Shown piece by piece: positions 3,816-40,803 of a stretch of 54,519 bases of DNA. How positions within the stretch are numbered: the stretch's first letter is position 1; each line of letters begins with the position of its first letter. The notes beneath the pieces were generated by a model that had not been told where the DNA came from, searched no databases, and worked only from the letters and a program-made list of their open reading frames with translations. The stretch is taken from positions 1 to 54,519 of the forward strand of contig CAZLLA010000001.1 of NCBI GenBank assembly GCA_964560315.1, written 5' to 3'. The DNA comes from an uncultured Candidatus Saccharibacteria bacterium (lineage in GTDB: Bacteria > Patescibacteriota > Saccharimonadia > Saccharimonadales > UBA4665). The position numbers and the translations under genes are program-made.

Positions 3816-6800
3816 TTATAGCCCAAAAATGCTTTGCAGAGCATTAAACACAATGCCTAGGGCATTGTCGGACGATTGGCCAATTATGGTTGTCTGGCTA
3901 CCAGACTCACCTTTGATGCCATCCGCATCATTAGAAATAACCTGCAAGTGATAAACTTCGGAAGTCGCCAAACCAGATACTACGACAACATGATTATTGA
4001 CTAGGGCGTTATTTTGGGCCGTGGTCGTTGAATAACCTCCACCTGTACCCTGTCCGTAAACAACTTGCGAGGTACCGGTTTTATCGGTCTTCCAGGAAAC
4101 TATTAGTTGGCCGTTGGCGTCAGCCCCGGTACCAATAATGCTCGGCTGAATGGTGATATCGCTGATGATTGGCGGTCTGGTATCAATACCGGATTTAAAG
4201 ACCTGCAAATCTGAGTTGGCAACATTACCAAGACCGTCAACTGACGTAGCTGTGACTGAATATTGCGTATTGTAATTTAAGTCGCTGATATCCATGGTGT
4301 GACTAGTGGTTAAGGTTGTGTCAAGTTGGTTTTGACGCGACCCGTTGAGCAGACCATAGCTAATCTGGGAGGTAGCCGGCACGTTAGTAACCCAACTAAT
4401 TTGCTCTGTACCAGTTAGGGCTCCAGGTACTGGCTCGAACTCCACGTTGGTGATAACCGGTTGGGGCGGCGTAGTAAAGGTAAAGGCTGTCGGATTATCG
4501 TAAATATCACCACTACTGTCGTAAGGATTAAGTTTAAAAGTGTAAGTTGTGCCAGAGCTCAAGCTGCTTAACGGGATACTATAAGTTGAAGTCATGGTAG
4601 AAGTATTTAGAGTTTGAGTATTGGAAAGAACGCCCCCGCCATACTCTAGCTGAACAGCTGTGGCATCGGTAGAAGTAAACTCGATAGTCGCCGAGCTTAA
4701 GTTGATGCTGCCAACCGAAACATTGCTGATAGACGGTGCCGGTAGCGTTGTAAAGGATATCTCAGGAGAAGTGCCTAAATTACCGTCGGTGTCTGTCCAT
4801 TGTGCACGATAGTAGTACGTCGTACCAGCATTTAAGCTATTTAACTCGACGCTATGACTAGTAACTTGATCGTTATTAGACGCTTCGGTCGTGAAATAAT
4901 GACCAGCACTTAAGCCATATTCAACACTGCTGTTACTATCCCGGTCGGTAACCCACGTGATGGTGGCAGTGCGCGTCGTAGCTGTAACATTTGGGCCAGA
5001 AATTAAATTGGCCGGGCTAGTAAACTTGCCGGTCGGTAAGAGATTTACTATGTCCGTGAATGCGCCACAGTTATTGGCTGAATCGCAAGCTTGAACCCTG
5101 TAGTAATAAGTCTGCTGACTTAAGCCAGCATCAACATAACTAGTACCTGCCGTGCTGGCAATGTTAGTGAAGCTGGTGTCGTCAGTGGAACGAAAGATTT
5201 TGTAATTGGCGATACCGGCACCAACAGTGCTCGGCACATTCCAAGACAGTGCTAACTTCCAGGTACTGGTGGCTTTAATACTGATATCGGCAATATCCAA
5301 ATTAAGTGGTATGCCTGGCGCAGGAGTATTAGCAGAAAAGGTCACACTGGCCGCTGTGGCATAATTGATATTCCCCGCTTCATCTTGAGCTACCACATAG
5401 AAAGTGTTGTCGCCTGGCTCACTGGCATAGGCCCCGGCGGCTAGGCTAGTCTGGCTAGCGGCGGTATAGGTACAGTCTGTACTGGAAGGTAATATATTAA
5501 CCGTGTAGCAATAGACAATGTTGCTAGCAGAACCGGTATAGGTAGCTGGTGGTAACCAAGAAAAAGCAAACGAGTTAACCGTATTGGTTGTGGGGGCAGC
5601 CGTCAAATTCTGGGGGGATGAGGGAGCAACGGTATTAATTTTGATGACTGCCGTGACATAGGCGGTTGAAACGTTGCCAGCATTATCCCAGGTTCTAAAA
5701 TAGATTAGGTTGTCACCATTGACCAAGCTACTGTAATCGGCCGGAACAGTCGTGTAAGAACCGTTGTTCGGCAATAAATCAGTCATGTCCTGATTACCGT
5801 TGTGGTTGGCTCCATACCAGACTCCACCGCTACCGATGCGATACTGCAAACCAGCCACGCCAGAGTTGGCGTCACTGGCGGCATTACTGCCGGTTGTGGG
5901 CCACGTCAGGTTGACTTGCTTATCGGATACAAATTCCGATGGAGCGCTGATGAAAACTGGATTCGTAGGAGGAGTATTGTCATAATAGAACTCAAATTGA
6001 GACGAGTCGCCATTATAGACATTGTAAGCATTATCTATCGCCTTAACATTAAGATAATACGGGCTATTGGACGTCGTCAGCGCAGTGACCAAGTAGCCGC
6101 TGATAGAAGTGTCAAGATTGGTGCTACTGACAATAAATTGGCAAGTACCGTTGGTATTGACTGGGCTGGTACCTAGATCTCCCTCAGTAGTTATGGGATT
6201 GCCAGTAGGATCTTGTCCCAAGTATAAACAGTAGCCTAAGATGCCAGATCCACCAGCGTTATCCGACCCGGCTGTCCAGCTAAAGTAGGGATCCGTATTA
6301 ACCCAGCCGGCATTAGTCACACTTGTCCCGCCGTTACTGCGATACATATCAATGTTACTGGCGTTGGTGGACGGTGGTGTTATATCTGGATTGTAGTCGG
6401 GTGCCGTGACATTACTAAAGTCTATCCAGCCTAAGTCCTCACTCCAAGCATATCCAGAAAACGTTCCGTTATTGACTACAACATCGGCGCCTGAAGTGTC
6501 GAAGTCTATATATCCACCGTTAAGGGCCTTAGCCTCACCGGAAAGTGTCCCGCTTTTATCTGCGACTACTGGACCATTCGGGTTGTTGGAATCAGCATTA
6601 AAATCAATCCACCCCAAATCAGTACTCCAAGCATATCCAGACATCTGTCTCGACCAGTTGTCGATCATCACATTACTGCCGTGAGAAGAGTCAAAATAAA
6701 TATCTTGACCCGTATCAATAACTGTAGCGTAACCCGAAATCGGTACGGTGCTTGAAGCCAGGGCTGGTCTTACATACGAAACAACGACGACACCCAAGAT

Positions 6801-8474: not shown

Positions 8475-9014
8475 CTAAGCTTTGTCGCCTGGTGATAATA
8501 GATGCATTTTGGGTAGATATTTGTGTCGTAAAACAGCCAGCTCTAGTTCTCGTAAAACCTCGGCAGCCTCAGCGTAACTCATGCCGACTCGGGAAACTAC
8601 CATAGACTGATCTTGATCGCCTTTTTGTAGAAAATTCATAATAACACCTTTATCGTTACCTGATATGGCAATCCCATCGCTATACATAACTCGGACATCA
8701 AGTGCAAGCAGTATAGTGGCAATCTTAGTCTGTGGGTCCTCAAAAATATGAAAATGTTCCTCGTTACCTCTGGTATAGCCAGCCGTGTCCCAAAGTTTTA
8801 CGGCCTCGTGATCTTGTAAATCAAAATAGTTAATCAATAACATCAACAGATCCTCGCTTGGGCGTTCTTCGCCTATTTCGATTTTCTCAAGGGTATCAGT
8901 ATCAATTTCGATTGCCCCAGACACTTCGGCGAGACTTTTTCGGCGACTTTCGCGTAGATCTTTCAGATGGCTGCCGAGCGTTCTAAAAGGTGTTTGGCGT
9001 TTAGGTTCTTGCAT
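8475..9014 (-). CDS. XRE-family helix-turn-helix transcriptional regulator with uncharacterised C-terminal domain
   Basis: HTH_3-like segment KSLAEVSGAIEIDTDTLEKIEIGEERPS. Start placed at ATG 9014 (MQEPKRQ). The longer ORF to 9053 would run through the murB promoter. TATAAT on the minus strand at 9021-9026. Confidence 0.7.
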   Translation of the reverse strand: MQEPKRQTPFRTLGSHLKDLRESRRKSLAEVSGAIEIDTDTLEKIEIGEERPSEDLLMLLINYFDLQDHEAVKLWDTAGYTRGNEEHFHIFEDPQTKIATILLALDVRVMYSDGIAISGNDKGVIMNFLQKGDQDQSMVVSRVGMSYAEAAEVLRELELAVLRHKYLPKMHLLSPGDKA

Positions 9015-9078
9015 GAGTATATTATATCGCCTCCCGAGAAAACTGAACAACACAATTGAGGTAAGCTATACTACTTGT

Positions 9079-10107
9079 ATGAAATTCCTATCCGACGTTA
9101 GCTTGGCAAATTATTCAACAATGCGTCTTGGCGGTAAAGCCGCCTTTGTAACAGAAATTCATGATCGCCGTGAATTGACCGAGGCCTTGGCTTGGGCGGA
9201 AGAACGAAAATTACCGGTGATTATGATTGGTGGCGGTAGCAACATTGTTTGGCGCGATGAAGGCTTTGATGGTTTGCTGCTAGTTAATAAGGTCATGCGT
9301 TACGAGGTTTTTGATGAAGATGAGACAAATTACTACGTCACTATCGGCGCCGGTGAAAACTGGGATAACACCGTTGCTCGAATGGTTGAAGCTGGTTTAA
9401 GCGGCACGGAGGCCCTAAGCCTAATTCCTGGAACCGCCGGGGCTACGCCAATTCAAAACGTTGGTGCTTACGGACAGGAGATTGCCAACACATTAGTTAC
9501 CGTTGAGGCCTATGACACCACTACGAAAAGCTTTGTGACTATACCTAATGCGGACTGTGCTTTCGGTTATCGCACCAGCCGTTTTAAGACTACGGATAAG
9601 GGACGTTTTTTCATTACTGCTATTACGCTTCATTTAAGTCGTACTAATCTGCAGCCACCATTTTATGCTGATCTGGAAGCTTATTTTAGTGAACATAAGA
9701 TTACTGAGTTTACCCCTCAAGCGACCAGGCTAGCTGTTATTGATATTCGCTCTCGTAAACTACCCGACCCTGCTCATGTAGCTAATAGCGGCTCATTTCT
9801 GGCTAATCCGGTTGTCGACAACAACACCTTTATGCAATTGGAAGACACGTATAGCAATATCCAGCATTGGCGAATAGACGATAACCACGTCAAACTGGCA
9901 GCTGGTTGGTTGCTAGAACAAGCCGGCTTTAAGGGCTACCATGATCCAGAGACGGGCATGGCGACTTGGCAAACTCATGCCCTGGTGCTGGTTAATGAGC
10001 ACGCTAAGTCAACTGCCGATCTTCTGAAATTCAAACAGAAGTTAGTGGGCGCCGTTCAAACAAAATTTGGTGTCACCTTAGTTCAAGAACCAGAGATGCT
10101 ACCGTAA
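9079..10107 (+). CDS. murB: UDP-N-acetylenolpyruvoylglucosamine reductase
   Basis: MurB N-terminus (LANYSTMRLGGKA), FAD-binding domain, C-terminal GWLLEQAGFKG motif. Start placed at ATG 9079, with TATACT at 9067-9072. Confidence 0.85.
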   Translation: MKFLSDVSLANYSTMRLGGKAAFVTEIHDRRELTEALAWAEERKLPVIMIGGGSNIVWRDEGFDGLLLVNKVMRYEVFDEDETNYYVTIGAGENWDNTVARMVEAGLSGTEALSLIPGTAGATPIQNVGAYGQEIANTLVTVEAYDTTTKSFVTIPNADCAFGYRTSRFKTTDKGRFFITAITLHLSRTNLQPPFYADLEAYFSEHKITEFTPQATRLAVIDIRSRKLPDPAHVANSGSFLANPVVDNNTFMQLEDTYSNIQHWRIDDNHVKLAAGWLLEQAGFKGYHDPETGMATWQTHALVLVNEHAKSTADLLKFKQKLVGAVQTKFGVTLVQEPEMLP

Positions 10108-10115
10108 GTGCAACT

Positions 10116-11402
10116 TCATGCTGGTTTGTCGCTCGGGAGTGGGAAATGTAATGAAAATTCTTTAACGGCTCGATGGAGCTCGTCTAGTTTAGCTTGGTCA
10201 TCCCGAGCATTAATAGCAGTTTTCATCCATTCAGCCAAAGTTACCATGTCTTTTTCGACTAGACCTCGAGTAGTTATCGCCGGTGTCCCGAGACGAACAC
10301 CACTCGGCCTAAAAGGGGGCAATGTGTCATTAGCAATGGCATTCTTGTTAAGGGTTAGGCCGATTTTATCGAGCGTCTCTTCAACTATCTTGCCGTCTAT
10401 GCCAAAACTTGCGTAAACATTGGCAAGAATAAGATGGTTGTCCGTACCACCAGTCACAAGTTTGAAATTGCGATCTAACATCTCAGCCGACAGCTTTTTA
10501 GCATTCTTCAGGATCTGCTCGGCATATGTCCGAAATTCTGGTCGCAAGGCTTCACCAAAACAGACTGCTTTAGCCGCAATTATGTGCATCAGCGGTCCAC
10601 CCTGCACGCCAGGAAAAACCGTTCGGTCAATCAGTGTCGGGATGTTTTCAATCGTCTTTTCTGGCGCTTTCAACGGGTTACTAACGACGCCTTTACTCAA
10701 AATTAAGCCTCCCCGTGGACCACGTAGAGTTTTGTGGGTTGTCGACGTAATAACATGAAAGCCGTAGTCTAGCGGATTTTTGGCCACCCCAGCGGCAATC
10801 AAACCGGCAATGTGAGCCATATCGGCCACCAGCAGCGCACCAACTTCTTGACCGATAGCAGCAAACTTGGCGTAATCCAGTTCACGCGGATAAGCCGAAA
10901 AGCCAGCCAAGATAATTTTTGGTTTATGTTCAAGAGCCAATTCTCTGAGATGCTCATAATCAATTTCGCCGGTATCGACATTTTTCATACCATAGCGGAT
11001 AAAATTATAGGTTCGGGCTAAAACGGTCACTGGTGATCCGTGAGTTAAATGGCCCCCATGGCTTAGATCCATAGCTAGGACAGTGTCGCCTGGCTCCAGC
11101 CATGAATGGTAGACAGCCTCGTTGGCTTGAGCGCCTGAGTGAGGCTGAACATTAGCGTGATCGGCTCTAAAAAGTTTTTTGGCTCGTTCAATAGCAATCG
11201 TTTCAACCTGATCAGTGTTCTCTTGACCACCATAGTAGCGTCGGCCAGGATAACCTTCCGAATACTTATTGGTAAACACACTGCCCATAGCCGTTAAGAC
11301 ATCACGCGATACGTAATTTTCGCTTGGAATCAGTTCTAAGCCTTCGTGTTGTCGTTTCTCTTCAGCGGCAATCAAACGTTTGATCTCTGTATCTTCCATC
11401 AT
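10116..11402 (-). CDS. glyA: serine hydroxymethyltransferase
   Basis: 428 aa. PLP-lysine motif TSTTHKTLRGPRGG. Full-length SHMT architecture. Confidence 0.95.
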   Translation of the reverse strand: MMEDTEIKRLIAAEEKRQHEGLELIPSENYVSRDVLTAMGSVFTNKYSEGYPGRRYYGGQENTDQVETIAIERAKKLFRADHANVQPHSGAQANEAVYHSWLEPGDTVLAMDLSHGGHLTHGSPVTVLARTYNFIRYGMKNVDTGEIDYEHLRELALEHKPKIILAGFSAYPRELDYAKFAAIGQEVGALLVADMAHIAGLIAAGVAKNPLDYGFHVITSTTHKTLRGPRGGLILSKGVVSNPLKAPEKTIENIPTLIDRTVFPGVQGGPLMHIIAAKAVCFGEALRPEFRTYAEQILKNAKKLSAEMLDRNFKLVTGGTDNHLILANVYASFGIDGKIVEETLDKIGLTLNKNAIANDTLPPFRPSGVRLGTPAITTRGLVEKDMVTLAEWMKTAINARDDQAKLDELHRAVKEFSLHFPLPSDKPA

Positions 11403-11534
11403 CTATACTCCCCTCAAGTTATGCAGTTCAATCGATCGCAATAACGACGGTTTAACTAGATCATGCTGACATTGTAACTCACCGATCAGAATTCGAGAAA
11501 ACCCTAGGAATCAATGTGAATTGATTATTGCACT

Positions 11535-11556
11535 AAAATATCACATGTGATATTTT
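11535..11556. promoter_or_regulatory. perfect 22-bp palindrome AAAATATCACA|TGTGATATTTT (candidate operator / back-to-back extended -10 elements)
   Basis: Read directly; 11+11 nt with no mismatch. Ends 9 nt before the ATG of the HTH-MurA gene, in the glyA/murA divergent intergenic region. Confidence 0.6.
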
Positions 11557-11565
11557 TAATCAGTT

Positions 11566-13086
11566 ATGCCTAAGACATACGAAAAAATCGGACAGCTTGT
11601 AGCTCAAGTTAGACAAGATCGTGGTTTAACCCAGGCGGAGTTTGCAAAATTACTCGGTACTAGCCAGTCAGCCATTAACCGCATCGAACACGGCAAGCAA
11701 AATTTGAGCCTTCAAACTTTAGGTCGGATCAGTGAGGTATTAAATAAGCAGCTGATTACCCTCAGTAGTAATGCTGTCAATCTTCATATTGAAGGTGGCC
11801 ATGAACTACACGGAACGATCGGGCTTAAAACAAGTAAAAATGCTGCGCTACACCTTCTTTGCGCTAGTTTACTTAATTACGGTGTCACACGTTTCAAATC
11901 GTTCCCGCGAATCGAAGAGGTTTATCGTATTATTGAAGTCTTTGAAAGTATCGGCGTGCAGGTTAAATGGCTACCCGGTAATGACTTAGAGATCCGCCGG
12001 CCAGCAACTCTGAATCTCGATAACTTAAACGCTGAAGCGGCCCGTTCCACTCGCTCAATCTTGATGATGATTGGTCCACTAATCCATGACTTTAAATCAT
12101 TCAAAATACCCTACGCCGGTGGTTGTCAGTTGGGTACTCGTACCGTTGCGCCACATTTATACGCCATGGAAGCTTTCGGCGTGGATATCGTTGCCACTCA
12201 GGGACACTACAATATAACAGTTCAGAAGAAACCAGCCGGCGATATTGTTCTTTACGAGTTTGGCAATACCGTGACAACAAACGCGCTCTTAGCATCAGCC
12301 AGGTTTGCCGAAACAACCACTATTGCTTCCGCGAGTGGCGACTATATGGTGCAGGATGTTTGCCATTTCTTACAGAAGCTTGGTGTGCGCATAGACGGCA
12401 TCAGCACCCAGAACCTCACGGTCAGGGGCGTGCCATTTATAAAGAAAAATGTCACCTATGCACCGGTTGAGGATCCAATTGAGGCAATGTTTTTCATATC
12501 AGCAGCAGTGACAACTAACTCCAAAATCACAATTGAGCGGACACCGTTTAAGTGGATTGGGTTGGAACTTTTAAAGCTCCAAAAGATGGGCCTTGAATAT
12601 AGTCTTAGCGAACCCTATAAAGCCGATAACGGCATAATCGACTTAGCCGATTTAACTATTGAAAAACACAACGGCAAATTACGTGCCTTGGCCGATAAGT
12701 TACACCCGAGCCTGTGGCCGGGGCTTAACCCTGACAGTTTACCGTATTTTGTGCCTATTGCAGCCGTCGCAAGGGGTCGAACCCTCATACATGATTGGAT
12801 GTATGAGAATCGAGCGATTTATTATACTGAACTAAACAAAATCGGGGCCCAGATAGAATTGGCTGACCCGCATCGTGTATACGTTGACGGACCGACCAAA
12901 TTCAGACCAGCTAATGTTGACTGTCCCCCGGCTCTCCGGCCGGCGAGTTTATTGTTAATAGGTATGCTGGCCGCAAATGGCGTAAGCATATTGCGTAATA
13001 TTTATACTATTCAGCGCGGTTACGAAGACCTAGCAGAAAGACTTAATTCGCTAGGGGCACACATTTCTTTGATACATGAACCATAA
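11566..13086 (+). CDS. murA: XRE-HTH domain fused to UDP-N-acetylglucosamine 1-carboxyvinyltransferase
   Basis: 506 aa. aa 8-62 are HTH_3 (GLTQAEFAKLLGTSQSAINRIEHGKQN). The rest is full-length MurA: KTSKNAAL, catalytic-Cys loop PYAGGCQLGTRTVAPH, WPGLNPDS, ENRAIYYTEL, C-terminal RGYEDLAERLNSLGA. Confidence 0.85.
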   Translation: MPKTYEKIGQLVAQVRQDRGLTQAEFAKLLGTSQSAINRIEHGKQNLSLQTLGRISEVLNKQLITLSSNAVNLHIEGGHELHGTIGLKTSKNAALHLLCASLLNYGVTRFKSFPRIEEVYRIIEVFESIGVQVKWLPGNDLEIRRPATLNLDNLNAEAARSTRSILMMIGPLIHDFKSFKIPYAGGCQLGTRTVAPHLYAMEAFGVDIVATQGHYNITVQKKPAGDIVLYEFGNTVTTNALLASARFAETTTIASASGDYMVQDVCHFLQKLGVRIDGISTQNLTVRGVPFIKKNVTYAPVEDPIEAMFFISAAVTTNSKITIERTPFKWIGLELLKLQKMGLEYSLSEPYKADNGIIDLADLTIEKHNGKLRALADKLHPSLWPGLNPDSLPYFVPIAAVARGRTLIHDWMYENRAIYYTELNKIGAQIELADPHRVYVDGPTKFRPANVDCPPALRPASLLLIGMLAANGVSILRNIYTIQRGYEDLAERLNSLGAHISLIHEP

Positions 13087-13099
13087 TAAGATTGCCTTG

Positions 13100-13118
13100 T
13101 GATATAATCACCTCTGTT
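13100..13118 (+). promoter_or_regulatory. tRNA operon promoter: extended -10 TGATATAAT plus conserved CACCTCTGTT
   Basis: TATAAT at 13103-13108, 10 nt before tRNA-Gly. The 16-nt string TATAATCACCTCTGTT is identical to the one upstream of tRNA-His. Confidence 0.55.
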
Positions 13119-13193
13119 GCGGGATTCGTATAACGGCTAGTATGTAAATTTTCCAAATTTACGGTGGGGTTTCGACTACCCCATCCCGCACCA
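13119..13193 (+). tRNA. tRNA-Gly(UCC)
   Basis: Hand-folded cloverleaf, 75 nt. Acceptor GCGGGAT/ATCCCGC, anticodon arm TAAAT-TTTCCAA-ATTTA, T arm GGGGT-TTCGACT-ACCCC, encoded ACCA. Confidence 0.85.
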
Positions 13194-13194
13194 A

Positions 13195-13271
13195 GCCCCG
13201 GTAGCTCAGTTGGATAGAGCAAGAGACTTCTAAGCTCAAGGCCAGGGGTTCGAATCCCTTCCGGGGCGCCA
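13195..13271 (+). tRNA. tRNA-Arg(UCU)
   Basis: 77 nt. Acceptor GCCCCGG/CCGGGGC, D arm GCTC-AGTTGGATA-GAGC, anticodon loop CTTCTAA, T arm AGGGG-TTCGAAT-CCCTT, GCCA end. The anticodon stem has only 3 Watson-Crick pairs (AGAGA/GCTCA). Confidence 0.75.
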
Positions 13272-13279
13272 TTTTATCG

Positions 13280-15781
13280 CTAGTGATTATTGCCGATGTT
13301 GGTCTTATAAAACCATATTTTAATTGTGTCTATAACCCCTAGGTAAGCAATTATCATGAAAACCGTGACGGATATTAGTCCGACGGAAAGTGGTGTGAAG
13401 GACAATAGTTTCTGGGTAGCTGGCAAGTAAACGAACAGCAGAGTCAGGACAGCTATTAAGGCGAAAGATATTTTCATTGGCTGCGATAGCTTTGGTGCTA
13501 GCCAGAAATGATCTTTATTACGAATTGAGAAGATCACTATCAGAGCCGAGAATGTTAAGAATAGATAAAGGCCCGTTTCAGCCACAGTTGCCGAATGACT
13601 CTTGATGATCGCGTAGTACATAATCTCGAATACAGCTGTTACTGAGCCTAAAAACATCGAAATGAACATCAGTGAATGGACATTAAATTTACTCGGTTGT
13701 AACAATTCTTTTGTGTCAACATTGTCGGTTGCGATCGTGATACACGGCAAGTCAGTTAGTAGACTAGTTAATAGAATTTGAACCGGTAAAATCGGCAATG
13801 ATCCAACCGATAACAGATACAGTGCGGACAAAGCAAAAAAATTACCCCAGTTGCTGACAAACGAAAAACGAATGTATTTATTAATATTGGTAAATATTTG
13901 GCGTCCATAATGAACGCCGTTGACGATCACGCCAATATCACTACGTAGAAGTAATATATCGGCGCTTTCCTGAGCCACATCGGTGGCATTATTGACGGCT
14001 ATAGCCACGTCAGCCAACTTGAGAGCTGGTGCGTCGTTAATACCGTCGCCTTGATAGCCAACTACATCACCGTGAAGTTTAAGTAGTTTTATGATCCGGT
14101 ATTTTTGTTCTGGGTTGAGCCTAGAAAAAGCATTGTTCTTTTGGGCCACATCAGCTACTTGATCGTCTGACATTTTATCCAAATCTTCTCCGGTGTAGAC
14201 AATCTGGTTCTTACCTACCAAGCCAACTTCCGTGGCTACGTATTGGGTAACTTCGCGACTATCGCCCGATAATATCTTAATGGCCACCCCGAGCTTCTCA
14301 GCTAATGCAATAGTGTGCTTGGCCGACGGCCGTAGTGGATCTTCGAGAGAAACAAAGCCAGCAAACTGTAAATCTTTTTCGTGCTTTAGGATATCGAATT
14401 CCCCGTGCGAGTCGTAATGGATTTCTTTGTAGGCTATACCTAGATGTCGCAGACCCATGGCCCCATCTGTTTTTAAAACGCTTTTGTATTGTTCGGCCTT
14501 AGATTCCTTTGCCAGATCAAGCAACGTTTCAACTGAGCCGACTTCCACTAGGTAGGTTCTTTCACCATCGCGGTAGACCACTCGGCGGCGGCGAGCCGTT
14601 GGGTCAAACGGCAACTCTTCAAGGCGTTCATAGACTTTAACTTCCTCTTGAATATCTGCTGGTACATATTCAAGGAAAGCTTTATCAAAAGAGCTCTGGA
14701 ATTTTTTACGTTTTTCGTCTAAGGTTTCCAGGCTTGCGACGGCCATCTGCTGGAAGAGTTTTGGATCGGCGGCAGTTAAGTTTTTAATCGTTAGCTTATT
14801 TTCTGTCAAAGTACCAGTCTTATCACTACAAAGTACCGTAATATTGCCGAGATCTTCCACGGCGGTCAGAGTTTTGGCAATAACGTGTCTTTTTGCCAAG
14901 TTAAGTGCCCCGCGGGACAATGTTACCGTTACAATAACCGGCATTGCCTCGGGGACCACGGCAATCGACAATGCAATAATGAACAACAATAAAGTGCCCA
15001 CGTTCGATGTATCGTGAATAAGAAACAACTTCAATATAAATACAACTACCAGAGTCAGGAAGGTCACTTTTACTAGAAAGCTGCTAAAAGATGATAACGA
15101 CTTCTCGAACTGTGTTTCACGCTTTGTCGAACTGGATAAATGAGCGATTTTACCAAGTTCAGTAAGTCCGGCCGTAGCATAGACAACACCTTTAGCCTCG
15201 CCCTGTTCAATCACGCTACCGGCATAAGCAATGGCTTGATTGCCGGATGTACTCTTTGCTACCGGTGCTGATTCACCGGTTAACTGTGATTCGTTGACCA
15301 TCGCGTCATCGACTTCAAAAAGGCGAATATCGGCCGGCACTATGTCGCCTTCACGGAGGACAACAACGTCACCTGGGACTATTAGCTTTTCAGGCGCCAA
15401 AGTCTGTTGGCCACCACGTACGACTAAGATATCCCTGTCGACTAACTTCTGTAACTTTTCAACGGCCTTTTCGGATCGAAACTCCTGAAAGAAACCAAGA
15501 CCGGTATTGATCAGTAGTATGGCAATGATTACCAATCCATCATTAAAGTCCTTAAGGACAAAAGACAAAAGAGCCGCCACAAGCAGTAGATACACCAAAG
15601 AGCTTCTGAATTGTTTTAGAATTAGCTCAGAGATACTTTTCTTACTTTCGTTTTTGAGTATATTTTGGCCGTAGCGTAGCAAGCGGCTTTGCGCTTCAGC
15701 TGCCGGTAAGCCAGCTGGTGACGTATCCAGCTCAGTCATCAACAAATGGAAGTCAATGCTTTTAGCTTTCTCTTTATCCAT
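13280..15781 (-). CDS. cation-transporting P-type ATPase (P2/P3-like, Mg2+/Ca2+ type)
   Basis: 833 aa. Canonical motifs TGESAPV, CSDKTGTLTENK and GDGINDAPALKLADV. TM4 motif PEAMP. About 10 TMs. Confidence 0.9.
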   Translation of the reverse strand: MDKEKAKSIDFHLLMTELDTSPAGLPAAEAQSRLLRYGQNILKNESKKSISELILKQFRSSLVYLLLVAALLSFVLKDFNDGLVIIAILLINTGLGFFQEFRSEKAVEKLQKLVDRDILVVRGGQQTLAPEKLIVPGDVVVLREGDIVPADIRLFEVDDAMVNESQLTGESAPVAKSTSGNQAIAYAGSVIEQGEAKGVVYATAGLTELGKIAHLSSSTKRETQFEKSLSSFSSFLVKVTFLTLVVVFILKLFLIHDTSNVGTLLLFIIALSIAVVPEAMPVIVTVTLSRGALNLAKRHVIAKTLTAVEDLGNITVLCSDKTGTLTENKLTIKNLTAADPKLFQQMAVASLETLDEKRKKFQSSFDKAFLEYVPADIQEEVKVYERLEELPFDPTARRRRVVYRDGERTYLVEVGSVETLLDLAKESKAEQYKSVLKTDGAMGLRHLGIAYKEIHYDSHGEFDILKHEKDLQFAGFVSLEDPLRPSAKHTIALAEKLGVAIKILSGDSREVTQYVATEVGLVGKNQIVYTGEDLDKMSDDQVADVAQKNNAFSRLNPEQKYRIIKLLKLHGDVVGYQGDGINDAPALKLADVAIAVNNATDVAQESADILLLRSDIGVIVNGVHYGRQIFTNINKYIRFSFVSNWGNFFALSALYLLSVGSLPILPVQILLTSLLTDLPCITIATDNVDTKELLQPSKFNVHSLMFISMFLGSVTAVFEIMYYAIIKSHSATVAETGLYLFLTFSALIVIFSIRNKDHFWLAPKLSQPMKISFALIAVLTLLFVYLPATQKLLSFTPLSVGLISVTVFMIIAYLGVIDTIKIWFYKTNIGNNH

Positions 15782-15852: not shown

Positions 15853-17490
15853 TTAAGTATTCCAGTTTTGGCCTAATATAATGACGAAATCGGCATTTGG
15901 ATAATTAGCAGCCTCATAAGCTTCTGTTGACCCAGCGGTACTAGTTACGACAGTGCCCGGGAAAAGCTGACTAAGTAACTGCTTAGTTGATGGATCTTTG
16001 CCGCTGGATTGGTCAACAATCATGGTGCCCGTGTAGAGACTACTGGCATCAGCAACCGATACCTCGTCAACCCCCTTAGTTTTGAGAACGCCCTGTTCCT
16101 TACCGGCTAGGCCATTAACACCACTGCCATTTAAAATAACCACGCTGGCGCCTTCCTTAACAACAGGATTGTTGGACGTCAACTGAAGATAGTATTGCTG
16201 CAGGCCGCCATAATTCCCAATACCGGCAGAGGGTATCAAAGCATCCTGGCCTGAAGCTGGGTCGAGGTAGCCAACCAATAGCGGGTTCGTTGCGCCCGTT
16301 AAGCTAGCGCTGTATTCATAAGACCCCAAGGTTGAGGGTGTGATACCTTTAGTAAGCTGCACCAGCCTGAGTACATCTTGAAGGTTAAGATTTGTCTGAA
16401 CGTTGTTGCCAATCGCGCTAAAAAGACTGGAAATTTTTACCGGGTTAGTAATCACACCTAGCGTTTTGCCTTTAGCGGCCAAGGCAACTAACATTTCCCG
16501 CTGGTACATTGTCCGAGTGTAGTCACTATTTGGTATACCATAAGTTATGTCCCCAGCCGGGACATCACCACGAGCTCTGGCTAAGTTAAGTGCCTCTTGA
16601 CCATTTAGAGTCACTTCACCATTTGGCAACTTAAGGTGTGTATACGAATCATAGATACCCCTAGGATCAGGGCTTTGAATATCTATAGTTATGCCATCGA
16701 CTGCGTTGACTGCGTCCTGAAAAGCGGCGTAGTTAATTAACGCATAATAATCAATCGGTATCCCTAGATCATTTTGGACAATTTGCTGGAGTTGTCCCAT
16801 ACCACCTTGCGGATAGCCGGATTGATTAAAGTTTGTCACGTCGTTAGCTGCGTTAATTTTTTGATAAGACCCCAAGCCCGGAACATAAACCCACAGGTCT
16901 CGAGGAATACTCATCATAAAAGCTGTGTGATTATTGGTATTGATACTGAGAACCATAATTGAGTCAGTCAGATCAGCTCCGTTGTGACCTGGGTCGTCAG
17001 CTGAGTCCCCGGCTAGCAGTATATTAACTCGGCCCTGGCTTTCGCCGTTCAGTCTGGTGCTACTAAACAAAGCCTGAAAGTCACTAATCGGATTGCCGTG
17101 AAAAACTTTATCCAGGCTATTAATAATCTGACCACCATACCAGGAACCGACGCCTATAAGGATCAGAAAAAGGACTAGAAAAGTTGTCAAAACTTTACGC
17201 TTTCGTGACCATTTTTTCCGCCTTGATGGTTTGGATCCAAAAGTCTTCGAAGATTGGTATCGCGAGTTAGGAATAGTGGTGTTTAATAGTGACGGCTGAT
17301 TTGAGCTCGACGGTTTTGCAGAACTTTCGGATAATGCCGGCAGCTTAGGCTCATTAATTGGAGCATTGGGATTATAGTCTTCCTGAATAACTGGGCTAGG
17401 TAATTTCTGAGGATTATTGTGCTGAACACGACTAGGCAAGATACCGTCCAAGCTCACGGGCTGGCGGGGGCTAATCGGCTTATAATCCAT
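15853..17490 (-). CDS. LytR-CpsA-Psr (LCP) family cell-wall polymer transferase with LytR_C domain
   Basis: 545 aa. Disordered basic N-terminus, one TM. LCP core (NILLAGDSADD...DSIMVLSI...SIPRDLWV). C-terminal VVILNGSGVNGLAGK segment. Confidence 0.8.
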   Translation of the reverse strand: MDYKPISPRQPVSLDGILPSRVQHNNPQKLPSPVIQEDYNPNAPINEPKLPALSESSAKPSSSNQPSLLNTTIPNSRYQSSKTFGSKPSRRKKWSRKRKVLTTFLVLFLILIGVGSWYGGQIINSLDKVFHGNPISDFQALFSSTRLNGESQGRVNILLAGDSADDPGHNGADLTDSIMVLSINTNNHTAFMMSIPRDLWVYVPGLGSYQKINAANDVTNFNQSGYPQGGMGQLQQIVQNDLGIPIDYYALINYAAFQDAVNAVDGITIDIQSPDPRGIYDSYTHLKLPNGEVTLNGQEALNLARARGDVPAGDITYGIPNSDYTRTMYQREMLVALAAKGKTLGVITNPVKISSLFSAIGNNVQTNLNLQDVLRLVQLTKGITPSTLGSYEYSASLTGATNPLLVGYLDPASGQDALIPSAGIGNYGGLQQYYLQLTSNNPVVKEGASVVILNGSGVNGLAGKEQGVLKTKGVDEVSVADASSLYTGTMIVDQSSGKDPSTKQLLSQLFPGTVVTSTAGSTEAYEAANYPNADFVIILGQNWNT

Positions 17491-39607: not shown

Positions 39608-40063
39608 CTAGCGTAGCAAAGGAATCAGAAGCACTATGGCACCTATAAACCAAGCAACTTCAACAACTACTCCGATGGGACGTTCAAACCATTGGATCTG
39701 GCTGGCAAATTTAGAATATAGATTGGGATGATACTTGGTGTGCGCTAGAGCGTGACGATATTTATTAATCGATAATAAATCAGGGGCGGCGGCCAAGAAA
39801 GCGCAGATAACTGCCAGCTGCCAGTTGATAGGCCGATTTATCGCCAGTAGGATTACCAGGCCAAAACAAAGAATAGTATCGAAATATATTAATCGCCGAA
39901 ATAGCGATGACTGAAGTCTTTGATCTTCTGGATCATTCTGCCCATAATGCGGAATAGCATCGCAAACGAAATGTGAGACTATTGCCAATGGTATTGCCGC
40001 TGCTGGCTCAGCAATTGCCAAACCAATAACTGCACCAGTTAAAGCATGATTAATCGCTCGCAT
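39608..40063 (-). CDS. DUF457/YdjM-like membrane-bound putative metal-dependent hydrolase
   Basis: 151 aa, 4 TMs. HALTGAV N-terminus and HFVCDAIPH motif. Confidence 0.55.
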   Translation of the reverse strand: MRAINHALTGAVIGLAIAEPAAAIPLAIVSHFVCDAIPHYGQNDPEDQRLQSSLFRRLIYFDTILCFGLVILLAINRPINWQLAVICAFLAAAPDLLSINKYRHALAHTKYHPNLYSKFASQIQWFERPIGVVVEVAWFIGAIVLLIPLLR

Positions 40064-40077
40064 ATTACTTGAACCTT

Positions 40078-40803
40078 TCAGAGTAAAGCTTCGGGAATGT
40101 CAAAATTGACATGAGTATTGGTGACATCATCGATTTCATCAAGCGCATCCATTAAACGCATGACTTTATCGGCCGTATCCTTATCGCCGACTTCGACAGT
40201 ATTATTTGGGACGTAGGTCATCTCCGAATCCAAGATTCTTAAACCAGCCGTGACTAGATTATCACGTACTTTTGCTAGTTCGGTCGGATTAGTATAAATT
40301 ACCGATTCGTCACCTTCCTCTTGAACGTCCTCAGCCCCCGCATCCAAGGCTTGCATTAATAACTCATCGCCAGTGCCTTGGACTCTAAGTAGGCCTTTTC
40401 GATCAAACTGAAAGGCGACTGCCCCTTTTTCGGCCAAACGGCCACCGTGCTTAGAAAAAGCTAATCGAACATCTGGGTAAGTTCGATTAAGATTGTCTGT
40501 CGCGCATTCAACCAGGATTGCTACACCGCCCGGTCCGTAACCCTCGTACATGACTTCTTGAATCTGTGATCCACCGAGTTTACCGGAACCACGATCAATC
40601 GAGCGCTGAATGTTGGCCGCTGGCATGTTAGAGGCACGGGCTTTATCGATGGCTAATCGTAATGCAAAGTTAGTCTCCGGATCAGAACCCCCGCGAGCAG
40701 CTACAGCTATAGTGTTGCCCAACTTCGTAAATATGGCACCTCTAACCGCGTCTTTACTGGCCTTTTGCCGTTTTATCGTTGACCACTTGCTATGACCTGA
40801 CAT
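40078..40803 (-). CDS. yebC: YebC/PmpR family DNA-binding regulator
   Basis: MSGHSKWSTIKRQKA...YEGYGPGGVAI, diagnostic YebC sequence. Confidence 0.95.
   Translation of the reverse strand: MSGHSKWSTIKRQKASKDAVRGAIFTKLGNTIAVAARGGSDPETNFALRLAIDKARASNMPAANIQRSIDRGSGKLGGSQIQEVMYEGYGPGGVAILVECATDNLNRTYPDVRLAFSKHGGRLAEKGAVAFQFDRKGLLRVQGTGDELLMQALDAGAEDVQEEGDESVIYTNPTELAKVRDNLVTAGLRILDSEMTYVPNNTVEVGDKDTADKVMRLMDALDEIDDVTNTHVNFDIPEALL

What the first reader, a model, noticed from the sequence alone, without database searches (positions are those of the whole stretch)
11535..13086. MurA fused to an XRE helix-turn-helix, with a perfect 22-bp palindrome at its own promoter
The only murA in the window encodes a 506-aa protein. 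Its first 65 or so residues are a classical XRE/HTH_3 DNA-binding domain, joined to an apparently catalytically intact MurA. The MurA part keeps K in KTSKNAAL, the catalytic Cys in GGCQLGTR, and the conserved C-terminal RGYE motif. The palindrome AAAATATCACA|TGTGATATTTT (no mismatch) ends nine nucleotides upstream of the ATG. Each half also reads as an extended -10 element (TGATATTTT). The site can therefore be seen either as an operator or as two back-to-back divergent promoters (murA and glyA) that a dimeric HTH would occlude together. An enzyme-transcription-factor fusion at the first committed step of peptidoglycan synthesis could tie transcription directly to UDP-GlcNAc/PEP flux, a trigger-enzyme logic like BirA, PutA or NadR. 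I know of no characterised case of this for MurA. The half-site TGTGATAT recurs at the tRNA-Gly promoter directly downstream (13098-13105).
Basis: partly seen in the sequence, partly recalled or inferred. Interest (0 to 1): 0.7.

Follow-up and report, generated by a model that had tools for sequence, protein, structure and literature searches.

The report
Self-regulating MurA enzyme with built-in repressor
The only MurA (first committed cell-wall enzyme) of this Saccharibacteria-like genome carries a DNA-binding domain. A matching palindrome sits on its own promoter in three bacterial lineages and changes together with the DNA-reading helix, so the enzyme very probably represses its own gene.

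Summary
ORF 11566-13086 encodes a 506-aa XRE-HTH + MurA fusion, and a perfect 22-bp palindrome (11535-11556) ends 9 nt before its ATG.

- **Not an artefact.** The fusion is full length in 80/80 Saccharibacteria species. It also occurs in Nomurabacteria/Paceibacterota and, at 509 aa, in Streptomyces, Nonomuraea and other actinomycetes.
- **Essential.** In Southlakia epibionticum it is the only gene annotated as a carboxyvinyltransferase, and published Tn-seq calls it essential.
- **Conserved core.** The core is 16 bp, ATATCA-N4-TGATAT. Its right arm is the promoter's extended -10 (TGnTAT), and the mRNA is predicted to be leaderless.
- **Left arm.** It is specific to murA: absent from other promoters and independent of the glyA neighbour.
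- **Other lineages.** A palindrome of the same geometry (ATCTCA-N4-TGAGAT) lies 27-29 nt before the start codon in 70-77% GC actinomycete DNA.
- **Covariation.** Proteins with recognition helix xSQS have ATATC..GATAT sites. Those with xTQS have ATAGC..GCTAT sites, with no exceptions.

Best reading: an active MurA that represses its own promoter. Control by a ligand is plausible but untested. The tRNA-Gly "half-site" is an ordinary extended -10, and the divergent-promoter idea is not supported. I found no published characterisation.

The parts
11566..13086 (+). HTH-MurA fusion gene (506 aa plus stop codon)
   Evidence: ORF list. Pfam HTH_3 plus EPSP_synthase. NCBIfam MurA. Full-length orthologues in 80/80 Saccharibacteria loci.
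11566..11760 (+). XRE-type helix-turn-helix domain (residues 1-65). The recognition helix is TSQSAINRIE, residues 32-41.
   Evidence: Pfam residues 13-63. AF2 helices at 4-18, 23-30, 34-41 and 49-59. T32 S33 Q34 S35 A36 R39 E41 are invariant across Saccharibacteria, actinomycetes and Nomurabacteria.
11756..11772 (+). Short flexible linker between the HTH and the MurA body (about residues 64-69)
   Evidence: AF2 pLDDT is below 50 at residues 64-68. The PDB MurA alignments start at residues 65-75.
11773..13083 (+). MurA (enolpyruvyl transferase) body, residues 70-506. Active-site residues: K91/N92, R163, C187, R192, D390, R416, R458, R484.
   Evidence: phmmer against PDB MurA over residues 74-502. 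Foldseek TM 0.85-0.92 to MurA structures. Catalytic-residue table.
11538..11553 (.). Conserved 16-bp operator core ATATCA-CATG-TGATAT (positions 1-16). Half-site centres are 10 bp apart.
   Evidence: Alignment of 80 Saccharibacteria promoters: A1 Y2 R3 Y4 100%, C5 91%, A6 90%. The same geometry is found in actinomycetes and in other Patescibacteria. It covaries with the recognition helix.
11535..11556 (.). The outer AAA/TTT is specific to this window.
   Evidence: The flanking columns have low information content.
11528..11533 (+). -35-like hexamer TTGCAC, 17 bp upstream of the -10
   Evidence: Read from the sequence. A TTG is conserved at this offset in relatives. It falls below the threshold of the consensus scan.
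11546..11556 (+). Extended -10: TGTG (TRTG motif), then A, then TATTTT. It overlaps the right arm of the operator.
   Evidence: TG at positions 11-12 in 78-79 of 80, T14 and A15 in 80/80, T16 in 78/80, T19 in 74/80. The modal distance from TG to ATG is 18 nt.
11563..11566 (+). Predicted transcription start, giving a leaderless or nearly leaderless mRNA with no Shine-Dalgarno sequence
   Evidence: Inferred. The -10 ends 9 nt before the ATG in most of the 80 species. No purine-rich stretch lies at 11557-11565.
13098..13108 (+). Extended -10 of the tRNA-Gly/tRNA-Arg promoter (TGTGATATAAT). It is not an operator.
   Evidence: Sequence. tRNAs at 13119-13193 and 13195-13271. No AYRYCA left arm at 13090-13095. 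The octamer frequency is not above chance.
10116..11402 (-). glyA (serine hydroxymethyltransferase), the divergent neighbour. It is context, not part of the system.
   Evidence: Pfam SHMT E 2e-153. Divergent and adjacent in 71/80 species, and the palindrome persists in the other 9.
9013..10107 (+). murB, the next enzyme of the pathway. Context.
   Evidence: Pfam FAD_binding_4 plus MurB_C. Present upstream in most Saccharibacteria loci.

Best explanation
The gene encodes a bifunctional protein. It is a catalytically competent MurA (UDP-GlcNAc enolpyruvyl transferase, the sole and essential MurA of Saccharibacteria). Its N-terminal XRE helix-turn-helix binds, presumably as a dimer, to the 16-bp palindrome ATATCA-N4-TGATAT. 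That palindrome lies in the spacer and extended -10 of the gene's own sigma-70-type promoter. A protein bound there would exclude RNA polymerase, so the level of MurA would limit its own transcription (negative autoregulation of a leaderless mRNA).

**Shown by comparison**
- The fusion and the active-site residues are conserved.
- The site is conserved at a fixed place in three lineages.
- The site is specific to this gene.
- The site co-varies with the recognition helix.

**Inferred**
- DNA binding as such.
- Dimerisation.
- The sign of regulation. Repression is inferred from the overlap with the -10.
- The leaderless transcription start.

**Speculative**
- That the ligand state of the MurA body modulates binding. 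Candidate ligands are UDP-GlcNAc, the feedback ligand UDP-MurNAc, and the PEP adduct. The open/closed movement of MurA is established knowledge.
For: 1. **Fusion real and widespread.** The top 120 homologues are all about 506 aa with HTH plus EPSP domains. It is full length in 80/80 GTDB Saccharibacteria species. It occurs in Nomurabacteria/Paceibacterota and in Streptomyces, Nonomuraea, Streptacidiphilus, Peterkaempfera, Marinactinospora and Thermoactinospora.
2. **Enzyme intact.** The equivalents of K22 N23 R91 G114 C115 R120 D305 R331 L370 R371 R397 are kept in the window protein and in 52 of 53 parsed metagenomic relatives. The AF2 model matches MurA structures at TM about 0.9. murB lies two genes upstream.
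3. **Essential in a cultivated relative.** In Southlakia epibionticum the orthologue SEML1_0687 has PF00275 plus PF01381. It is the only carboxyvinyltransferase in the gene table and is called essential at all three time points (PMC10633639 Tables S1/S2).
4. **Site conserved.** The left arm A-Y-R-Y-C-A scores 100/100/100/100/91/90% over 80 species, while the flanking columns are unconstrained.
5. **Not a generic promoter feature.** 1206 other TGnTAnnnT sites and 55 leaderless-type promoters in the same loci show no conservation at those positions.
6. **Independent of neighbours.** The site persists without glyA in 9 Saccharibacteria. In 8 actinomycete loci of 6 genera with entirely different neighbours and 70-77% GC, ATCTCA-N4-TGAGAT lies at -27 to -29.
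7. **Tied to this gene.** 54 of 57 strict sites in 427 kb of metagenomic loci lie within 200 nt upstream of the fusion gene.
8. **Specificity covariation.** Of 62 proteins with an xSQS helix, 56 have a class-A site and none an ATAGC site. Of 18 with an xTQS helix, 16 have ATAGC-N6-GCTAT and none a class-A site. All 74 sites have complementary bases at positions 4 and 13.
9. **Geometry.** Half-site centres are 10 bp apart, and the operator centre lies about -18 to -20 from the predicted start, overlapping the -10.
Against: - There is no experimental evidence of DNA binding, dimerisation or regulation for any member.
- The right arm is also the extended -10, so its conservation alone proves nothing. 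The case rests on the left arm and on the covariation.
- The covariation reflects few independent events: about three or four clade-level switches (xTQS, actinomycetes, L089, L118), not 74.
- Within Saccharibacteria, positions 4 and 13 vary independently (T/C against A/G).
- The window's own promoter is below the threshold of the consensus scan.
- Canonical MurA is monomeric, so the source of dimerisation is unknown.
- Asp369 (E. coli numbering), described as highly conserved, is replaced by Ala/Pro, and the protein misses the TIGR01072 equivalog cut-off. Catalytic competence is therefore inferred, not shown.
Confidence: 0.75

Rival explanations
1. The palindrome is only promoter DNA: an extended -10 plus a conserved spacer, or two back-to-back promoters for murA and glyA. 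On this reading the fused HTH binds elsewhere or not at all.
For: The right arm TGnTAT coincides exactly with the TGnTATAAT extended -10. Read on the other strand, the left arm also looks like TGATAT. glyA is divergent in 71/80 species. A minus-strand promoter-like match overlaps the site.
Against: The left arm is not conserved in 1206 other extended -10 sites or in 55 leaderless-type promoters. It persists where glyA is absent, and in actinomycetes and Nomurabacteria with unrelated neighbours. glyA has its own extended -10 directly before its ATG in L012 and L027. In actinomycetes the arms are TGAGAT, which is not a -10, yet the symmetry is kept. Arm sequence changes with the recognition helix.
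Confidence: 0.07
2. The MurA-like body is a ligand-sensing pseudoenzyme of a transcription factor. It senses UDP-sugars and is not the working MurA.
For: A rarer branch of the family has lost the Cys loop, R120 and RGYE but keeps the HTH. That branch comprises P0175, P0164, P0173, P0143, P0153, P0185, P0178 and L089. L089 still has a palindrome at -30. The window protein misses the TIGR01072 cut-off and lacks Asp369. S. coelicolor is reported to have two MurA enzymes, MurA and MurA2 (PMC12161575).
Against: All other catalytic residues are invariant across three lineages. In S. epibionticum the fusion is the only carboxyvinyltransferase in the genome table and is essential, in a genome with murC-F type ligases also essential. 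The gene lies beside murB.
Confidence: 0.08
3. The site is bound by another regulator, for example the neighbouring 192-aa HTH_31 protein at 8475-9053. The fused HTH would then serve protein-protein contacts or localisation.
For: A separate XRE-type gene lies 2.5 kb upstream. In Streptomyces venezuelae the murA2 promoter is bound by BldM-WhiI (PMC4125116), so other factors do act on such promoters.
Against: The neighbouring gene is not conserved in the actinomycete or Nomurabacteria loci that still have the site. The half-site changes track the fused domain's own recognition helix. The BldM-WhiI motif is described as non-palindromic.
Confidence: 0.05
4. The protein activates, rather than represses, its own promoter or other promoters.
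For: Some XRE-family proteins activate transcription. In some Nomurabacteria loci the site lies far from the ATG, at -46 to -159.
Against: In those loci too the site is followed at once by TATAAT-like bases and preceded by TTG (55 of 74). It therefore always overlaps the core promoter, the classical position of a repressor.
Confidence: 0.05

Closest known systems
Trigger enzymes and bifunctional enzyme-repressors: BirA (biotin ligase/bio repressor), PutA (proline dehydrogenase/put repressor), NadR (own knowledge of the concept, Commichau and Stulke 2008)
   Same: A metabolic enzyme and a DNA-binding domain share one polypeptide. The operator lies at the promoter of the enzyme's own pathway gene. 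The expected logic is homeostatic feedback.
   Different: The enzyme fold and pathway differ (first committed step of peptidoglycan synthesis). The DNA-binding domain is XRE/HTH_3, not the winged helix of BirA or the ribbon-helix-helix of PutA. Dependence on a ligand, which defines BirA and PutA, is untested here. So far only self-regulation is indicated, with no wider regulon.
PtrEPSP-TF of Populus trichocarpa: an EPSP synthase isoform with an HTH motif that binds DNA and regulates phenylpropanoid genes (PMC6941116)
   Same: It belongs to the same enolpyruvyl transferase fold superfamily, carries an added HTH, and acts as a transcription factor.
   Different: It is eukaryotic. The enzyme is AroA-type, not MurA. 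It regulates other genes rather than its own promoter. The fusion is probably of independent origin; homology between the two HTH segments was not tested.
Canonical MurA (E. coli / Enterobacter cloacae MurA; MurAA/MurAB of Firmicutes)
   Same: The whole 420-residue two-domain fold is aligned at TM about 0.9. The Cys115 loop, K22, R120, D305 and R397 are kept.
   Different: It has an extra 65-residue HTH plus a linker. Sequence identity is only about 25-27%. There is an insertion around residues 355-385. Asp369 is replaced by Ala/Pro. The protein scores below the TIGR01072 equivalog cut-off. The known control of canonical MurA is post-translational: ClpCP/ReoM in Firmicutes and CwlM in mycobacteria (own knowledge), and feedback by UDP-MurNAc (PDB 3su9, 3swd titles).
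Streptomyces MurA2 (SCO5998 / sven5810 / vnz_28735)
   Same: The actinomycete 509-aa HTH-MurA lies near the aconitase gene, as SCO5998 does beside SCO5999. It is a second MurA in those genomes, is 52-53% identical to the window protein, and has the same palindrome geometry.
   Different: MurA2 is a developmental target of BldM-WhiI, which is not relevant to Saccharibacteria. The half-site is ATCTCA instead of ATATCA.
Autoregulating XRE/Cro-C1-type repressors (phage 434 and P22 repressors, SinR, antitoxins such as HipB)
   Same: The HTH_3 fold. A short palindromic operator with half-sites one helical turn apart, overlapping the protein's own promoter. The best PDB hit for the HTH segment is HipB.
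   Different: In those proteins the partner domain is a dimerisation or toxin-binding module. Here it is a complete essential enzyme.

Membership tests
MurA (UDP-N-acetylglucosamine 1-carboxyvinyltransferase) | Two-domain EPSP-synthase/enolpyruvyl transferase fold over the full length | tested here: met
   Pfam PF00275 at residues 76-493, profile positions 2-417 of 417. phmmer against PDB MurA at residues 74-502. Foldseek TM 0.85-0.92.
MurA (UDP-N-acetylglucosamine 1-carboxyvinyltransferase) | Catalytic loop Cys115 (or Asp) with R120, plus K22, N23, R91, D305, R331, R371, R397 | tested here: met
   All are present in the window protein and in 52 of 53 parsed relatives, and invariant in alignment A4.
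MurA (UDP-N-acetylglucosamine 1-carboxyvinyltransferase) | Asp369 (E. coli numbering), described as highly conserved and linked to PEP/fosfomycin interaction | tested here: not met
   It is Ala or Pro (motif PPALRP) in the whole HTH-MurA family. For the role of Asp369 see PMC4790336 and PMC4062475.
MurA (UDP-N-acetylglucosamine 1-carboxyvinyltransferase) | Score above the curated family cut-offs | tested here: inconclusive
   NF006873 subfamily 303.4 against 297 (pass). TIGR01072 equivalog 284 against 392.7 (fail). NF009470 201 against 552 (fail).
MurA (UDP-N-acetylglucosamine 1-carboxyvinyltransferase) | Enolpyruvyl transfer from PEP to UDP-GlcNAc; required for growth | not testable with these tools
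   Indirect only. The orthologue SEML1_0687 is the sole annotated MurA and is essential by Tn-seq in S. epibionticum.
XRE / HTH_3 (Cro/C1-type) DNA-binding regulators | Five-helix HTH_3 domain above the Pfam cut-off | tested here: met
   PF01381 56 bits against 23; PF13560 39.6 against 27. AF2 gives four helices in residues 4-59.
XRE / HTH_3 (Cro/C1-type) DNA-binding regulators | Cognate inverted-repeat operator, half-sites about one helical turn apart, usually at the regulator's own promoter | tested here: met
   A 16-bp palindrome with 10-bp centre spacing, conserved in three lineages and co-varying with the recognition helix. This is comparative evidence only.
XRE / HTH_3 (Cro/C1-type) DNA-binding regulators | Sequence-specific DNA binding as a dimer | not testable with these tools
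   Only a monomer model was made, and there is no binding assay.
Trigger enzymes (BirA / PutA / NadR type) | Active enzyme and DNA-binding domain in one polypeptide | tested here: met
   Domain architecture and intact active site. Activity itself is inferred.
Trigger enzymes (BirA / PutA / NadR type) | DNA binding switched by the enzyme's substrate, product or catalytic state | not testable with these tools
   No data. This is the feature that would make it a true trigger enzyme rather than a simple autorepressor.
NikO-type enolpyruvyl transferases (nikkomycin pathway) | Closer to NikO than to MurA | tested here: not met
   NikO (4fqd) scores 64.8 bits, against 130-170 bits for MurA entries.

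The most novel reading that the evidence does not exclude
HTH-MurA is a true trigger enzyme and the ancestral MurA of Patescibacteria. On this reading the open/closed or ligand-bound state of the MurA body controls how the tethered HTH dimerises on the operator. Candidate ligands are UDP-GlcNAc, UDP-MurNAc, the PEP adduct and fosfomycin. Flux through the first committed cell-wall step would then set murA transcription directly. This would replace the proteolytic and kinase-based controls that these tiny genomes lack. The same module, exchanged between Patescibacteria and their actinomycete hosts, would act as the sporulation-phase MurA2 of Streptomyces. A single Ser/Thr in the recognition helix would define a simple protein-DNA recognition code (ATATC against ATAGC).
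Probability: 0.3. Interest if true: 0.85.

Novelty: new variant of a known kind. Interest (0 to 1): 0.72.

Why it matters
- **A new layer of MurA control.** MurA is the gate of peptidoglycan synthesis and the target of fosfomycin. Its known control is post-translational. A MurA that carries its own repressor domain and sits on its own promoter would add a transcriptional layer.
- **Breadth.** This form is the sole and essential MurA in cultivated Saccharibacteria. It appears to be standard in at least two classes of Patescibacteria (Saccharimonadia and Paceibacteria/Nomurabacteria), which have very few regulators. It is also present in most Streptomyces-like actinomycetes.
- **Ready predictions.** The comparative data give the exact 16-bp site, its position on the promoter, and a one-residue/one-base specificity switch.
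- **Tractable organisms.** Southlakia epibionticum and Streptomyces venezuelae can both be manipulated genetically.
- **Drug relevance.** The family-wide loss of Asp369 may bear on fosfomycin sensitivity in these groups.

Tried and rejected
- **RNA hairpin.** The transition-only variation in the left arm would give C-A mismatches on either strand, and the site lies upstream of the predicted start. Rejected.
- **Generic promoter element.** Rejected with the control set.
- **Divergent glyA promoter.** Rejected.
- **Regulon inside the window.** The full palindrome has no second copy at up to 3 mismatches. The degenerate consensus AYRYCA-N4-TGRYRT hits 5857 and 40097 (0.2 expected). Both lie in coding DNA with no promoter context, so they are weak leads only.
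- **Extra sites in Saccharibacteria loci.** There are 8, against 1.9 expected. Four are the same glyA codons (YVSRDV).
- **tRNA-Gly half-site.** Not significant.
- **Covariation of positions 4 and 13 within Saccharibacteria.** Absent.
- **Rfam.** Only tRNAs in the window.
- **Transfer between Saccharibacteria and their actinomycete hosts.** An NJ tree puts the two clades together in only 84-96 of 200 bootstraps, so this is unresolved. A first tree script timed out.
- **Metagenome scan with the broad alignment A2.** A3 was used instead.
- **Literature.** Ten full-text searches found no paper describing the fusion.
- **Names for the degenerate and unfused relatives.** None on record.
Full report
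**1.

ORF 11566..13086 (+) encodes 506 aa.
- Pfam places an HTH_3 domain at residues 13-63 (E 4e-15) and an EPSP_synthase domain at residues 76-493 covering the whole profile (E 9e-38).
- NCBIfam calls it MurA. It passes the NF006873 subfamily cut-off (303 bits against 297) and fails the TIGR01072 equivalog cut-off (284 against 392.7), so it is a divergent MurA.
- The palindrome AAAATATCACATGTGATATTTT is at 11535-11556. It is perfect, unique in the window at up to 3 mismatches (0.01 expected), and ends 9 nt before the ATG.
- No other MurA-like sequence is in the window.

Local context:

| Coordinates | Strand | Feature |
|---|---|---|
| 8475-9053 | - | 192-aa HTH_31 protein |
| 9013-10107 | + | murB |
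| 10116-11402 | - | glyA |
| 11566-13086 | + | the fusion |
| 13119-13193 | + | tRNA-Gly |
| 13195-13271 | + | tRNA-Arg |
| 13280-15781 | - | P-type ATPase |
| 15853-17490 | - | LytR-CpsA-Psr protein |

**2. The fusion is not an artefact and is far more widespread than one genome**

- The 120 best database homologues are all 505-511 aa with both domains and are named Candidatus Saccharibacteria/Saccharimonadales.
- A scan of one genome per GTDB species returned 80 Saccharibacteria species. Every one has a full-length, uninterrupted fusion.
- A search of 1.8 billion cluster representatives with residues 1-160 found more distant full-length fusions.
- One of these clusters is from Nonomuraea. 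Searching with it showed a 509-aa version, 86-96% identical among genera, in Streptomyces, Nonomuraea, Streptacidiphilus, Actinacidiphila, Peterkaempfera, Marinactinospora and Thermoactinospora.
- A metagenome scan gave 80 further loci with GC 29-57%. Their low-GC majority belongs to Candidatus Nomurabacteria/Paceibacterota.
- In Streptomyces the gene lies near the aconitase gene, as reported for murA2 (SCO5998) beside SCO5999 (PMC12161575). murA2 is a BldM-WhiI developmental target (PMC4125116). That the fusion is MurA2 is therefore likely, but it rests on synteny only.

**3. The enzyme part looks functional and is the working MurA**

- Alignment with E. coli MurA shows that the equivalents of K22, N23, R91, G114, C115, R120, D305, R331, L370, R371 and R397 are kept. 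This holds in the window protein, in the actinomycete proteins and in 52 of 53 parsed metagenomic proteins.
- The one family-wide departure is Asp369, replaced by Ala/Pro (motif PPALRP). In E. coli this residue is described as highly conserved, and D369N lowers fosfomycin susceptibility (PMC4790336; PMC4062475).
- An AlphaFold model (pLDDT 86.5, pTM 0.82) shows a confident MurA body. It also shows a less confident four-helix HTH (residues 4-59), a disordered linker (64-68) and a flexible Cys loop (186-190).
- The model superposes on solved MurA structures at TM 0.85-0.92. No listed match (all about 410-440 residues) carries an HTH.
- The published Tn-seq table for the cultivated Saccharibacterium Southlakia epibionticum lists SEML1_0687 (1524 bp; PF00275 79-494 plus PF01381 14-65). 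It lies next to SHMT and to tRNA-His/Gly/Arg. It is essential at all three time points: 48 insertions in the input DNA, then 1, 1 and 0 after growth. It is the only "carboxyvinyltransferase" in the gene table (PMC10633639).
No unfused copy is annotated there.
- The main text of that paper does not mention MurA or the HTH.

**4. What the palindrome is**

Alignment of the 70 nt upstream of the 80 Saccharibacteria genes is almost gapless. It shows this layout:
- a TTG-containing -35;
- a 17-bp spacer;
- TRTG-n-TATAAT, an extended -10;
- the ATG 9 nt after the -10, with a modal distance of 18 nt from TG to ATG and no Shine-Dalgarno sequence.

This indicates a leaderless or nearly leaderless mRNA.

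The right arm of the palindrome (TGATAT, window 11548-11553) is therefore the TG motif plus the first half of the -10. The left arm (window 11538-11543) lies in the spacer. It is more conserved than the -35: A 100%, Y 100%, R 100%, Y 100%, C 91%, A 90%. Neighbouring columns are unconstrained. Only the central 16 bp are conserved. The outer AAA/TTT of the 22-mer is peculiar to this window.

**5. The left arm is specific to this gene**

- Among 1206 other TGnTAnnnT sites in the same loci and window, and 55 that are followed by an ATG-ORF at 14-23 nt (leaderless-type promoters), positions 1-10 carry no information. AYRYCA occurs at that offset in only 7 and 1 of them.
- glyA is the divergent neighbour in 71 of 80 species. 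In the 9 where it is displaced or absent, the site is unchanged.
- In relatives such as L012 and L027, glyA has its own extended -10 directly before its ATG.

**6. Independent lineages**

- In 8 actinomycete loci from 6 genera (GC 70-77%, all with different neighbours) the AT-rich palindrome ATCTCA-N4-TGAGAT lies 27-29 nt before the start codon. That is the same distance as in Saccharibacteria.
- Position 3 has changed in both arms together.
- In the 80 metagenomic loci, 54 of the 57 strict sites found in 427 kb lie within 200 nt upstream of the fusion gene.
- The three exceptions are two copies inside the HTH coding sequence and one in front of an upstream ORF in L127.
- Where the site is further from the ATG, it is still flanked by TTG and TATAAT-like bases. 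It therefore always overlaps the core promoter.

**7. The protein and the site change together**

| Recognition helix | n | Class-A site (ATATCA-type, AT[ACT][TC]CA-N4-TG..AT) | ATAGC-N6-GCTAT |
|---|---|---|---|
| xSQS | 62 | 56 | 0 |
| xTQS | 18 | 0 | 16 |

- All 16 ATAGC sites in the 427 kb are upstream of xTQS genes.
- Positions 4 and 13 are complementary in 74 of 74 sites.
- The variable base is exactly the free "n" of the TGnTATAAT extended -10. This explains how an operator can be embedded in a promoter and still diverge.
- Caveat: these are a few clade-level switches, not 74 independent events. Within Saccharibacteria, transitions at positions 4 and 13 occur independently.

**8. Mechanism proposed**

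- An XRE HTH, tethered by a short flexible linker to an active MurA, binds as a dimer to two half-sites whose centres are 10 bp apart.
- The site is centred about 18-20 bp upstream of the predicted start, over the spacer and -10. It would block RNA polymerase, so MurA limits its own synthesis.
- Binding, dimerisation, the sign of regulation and the start site are inferences.
- Modulation by UDP-GlcNAc, UDP-MurNAc or PEP is attractive, because MurA changes conformation and forms a dormant UDP-MurNAc/PEP complex (PDB 3su9 and 3swd titles). It remains untested.
- A rarer branch of the family has lost the Cys loop, R120 and RGYE but keeps the HTH. Its one available locus still has a palindrome at -30 (L089, ATAAC-N6-GTTAT). 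The regulatory half can thus outlive the enzymatic half.

**9. What is not supported**

- The tRNA-Gly "half-site" at 13098-13105 is TGTGATATAAT, an ordinary extended -10 10 nt before the tRNA. It has no left arm. The octamer is not over-represented (5 against 2.0 expected).
- No second operator was found in the window.

**10. Comparison and novelty**

- It works like the bifunctional enzyme-repressors BirA, PutA and NadR (own knowledge).
- Within its fold superfamily it resembles the poplar EPSP synthase isoform PtrEPSP-TF, which has an HTH and acts as a transcription factor (PMC6941116).
- It is a member of MurA by fold and active site, with the Asp369 and equivalog-score reservations. It is a member of HTH_3 regulators by domain.
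- Whether it is a true trigger enzyme depends on ligand-switched binding, which cannot be tested here.
- Ten full-text searches found no description of an HTH-MurA. The databases label it MurA or "helix-turn-helix domain-containing protein".
- I rate it a new variant of a known kind.
- The relationship between the actinomycete and Saccharibacteria clades is unresolved: they are sister groups in 42-48% of NJ bootstraps.

Noticed in passing
window gene starts at 118(+), 1619(-), 15781(-), 22289(-), 43377(-), 45766(-), 46487(-), 52146(-): Each of these ATG starts has a TGnTAnnnT extended -10 beginning 15-21 nt upstream and no room for a Shine-Dalgarno sequence. Leaderless mRNAs therefore seem common in this genome, not only at murA (coordinates converted from the reverse-strand index).
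   Followed up: partly
L096, L103, L118, L121, L123, L130, L137, L146, L147, L149, L160 (upstream of the operator): A DnaA-box-like TTATCCACA (at most 1 mismatch) sits 23-34 nt upstream of operator position 1 at 14 of 80 pattern-matched operator sites in the metagenomic (largely Paceibacteria-type) loci. Across those loci the motif occurs 42 times on the murA strand against 11 on the other. It is not enriched in the Saccharibacteria loci. It may be a second input, such as DnaA, or a lineage-specific promoter element.
   Followed up: partly
P0175, P0164, P0173, P0143, P0153, P0185, P0178; locus L089 1615-3129: A rarer branch of HTH + MurA-like proteins (488-517 aa) has lost the GGC..R catalytic loop and RGYE but keeps the HTH. 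L089 still has a palindrome (ATAAC-N6-GTTAT) about 30 nt before its ATG. These look like pseudoenzyme regulators. Their taxonomy is unknown.
   Followed up: partly
L081-L088 (actinomycete loci), e.g. L081 5975-5990: Streptomyces-like actinomycetes carry a highly conserved 509-aa HTH-MurA with ATCTCA-N4-TGAGAT before the start codon. Synteny with aconitase suggests it is the developmental gene murA2 (SCO5998/vnz_28735), whose HTH is not mentioned in the murA2 passages of the papers read.
   Followed up: partly
window 12925-12942 (residues 454-459, PPALRP): The residue equivalent to E. coli MurA Asp369 is Ala/Pro in every HTH-MurA examined. D369N in E. coli reduces fosfomycin susceptibility, so this family may differ in its handling of fosfomycin or PEP.
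   Followed up: partly
window 8475-9053 (-): A 192-aa protein with an HTH_31 domain (residues 26-84) is encoded divergently from murB. Its 5' end overlaps the annotated murB start by about 40 nt. Its function and its relation to the cell-wall genes are unknown.
   Followed up: no
window 5857-5872 and 40097-40112: Two further matches to the degenerate operator consensus AYRYCA-N4-TGRYRT (ACGCCAGAGTTGGCGT and ATGTCAAAATTGACAT), against 0.2 expected. Both lie in coding DNA. The second is at the 3' end of a YebC-family gene, 34 nt before the next ORF (39608-40063).
   Followed up: partly
L021, L030, L057, L078 at about 2753-2799: The glyA codons for the conserved peptide YVSRDV happen to read ACGTCACGACTGACGT, a match to the degenerate operator consensus, in four species. 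This is probably a coding coincidence, and the window's glyA does not match.
   Followed up: yes
window 15853-17490 (-) and 13280-15781 (-): A LytR-CpsA-Psr (cell-wall polymer ligase) gene and a P-type cation ATPase lie directly downstream of the murA-tRNA block. The neighbourhood is thus enriched in envelope functions (murB, murA, LCP).
   Followed up: no
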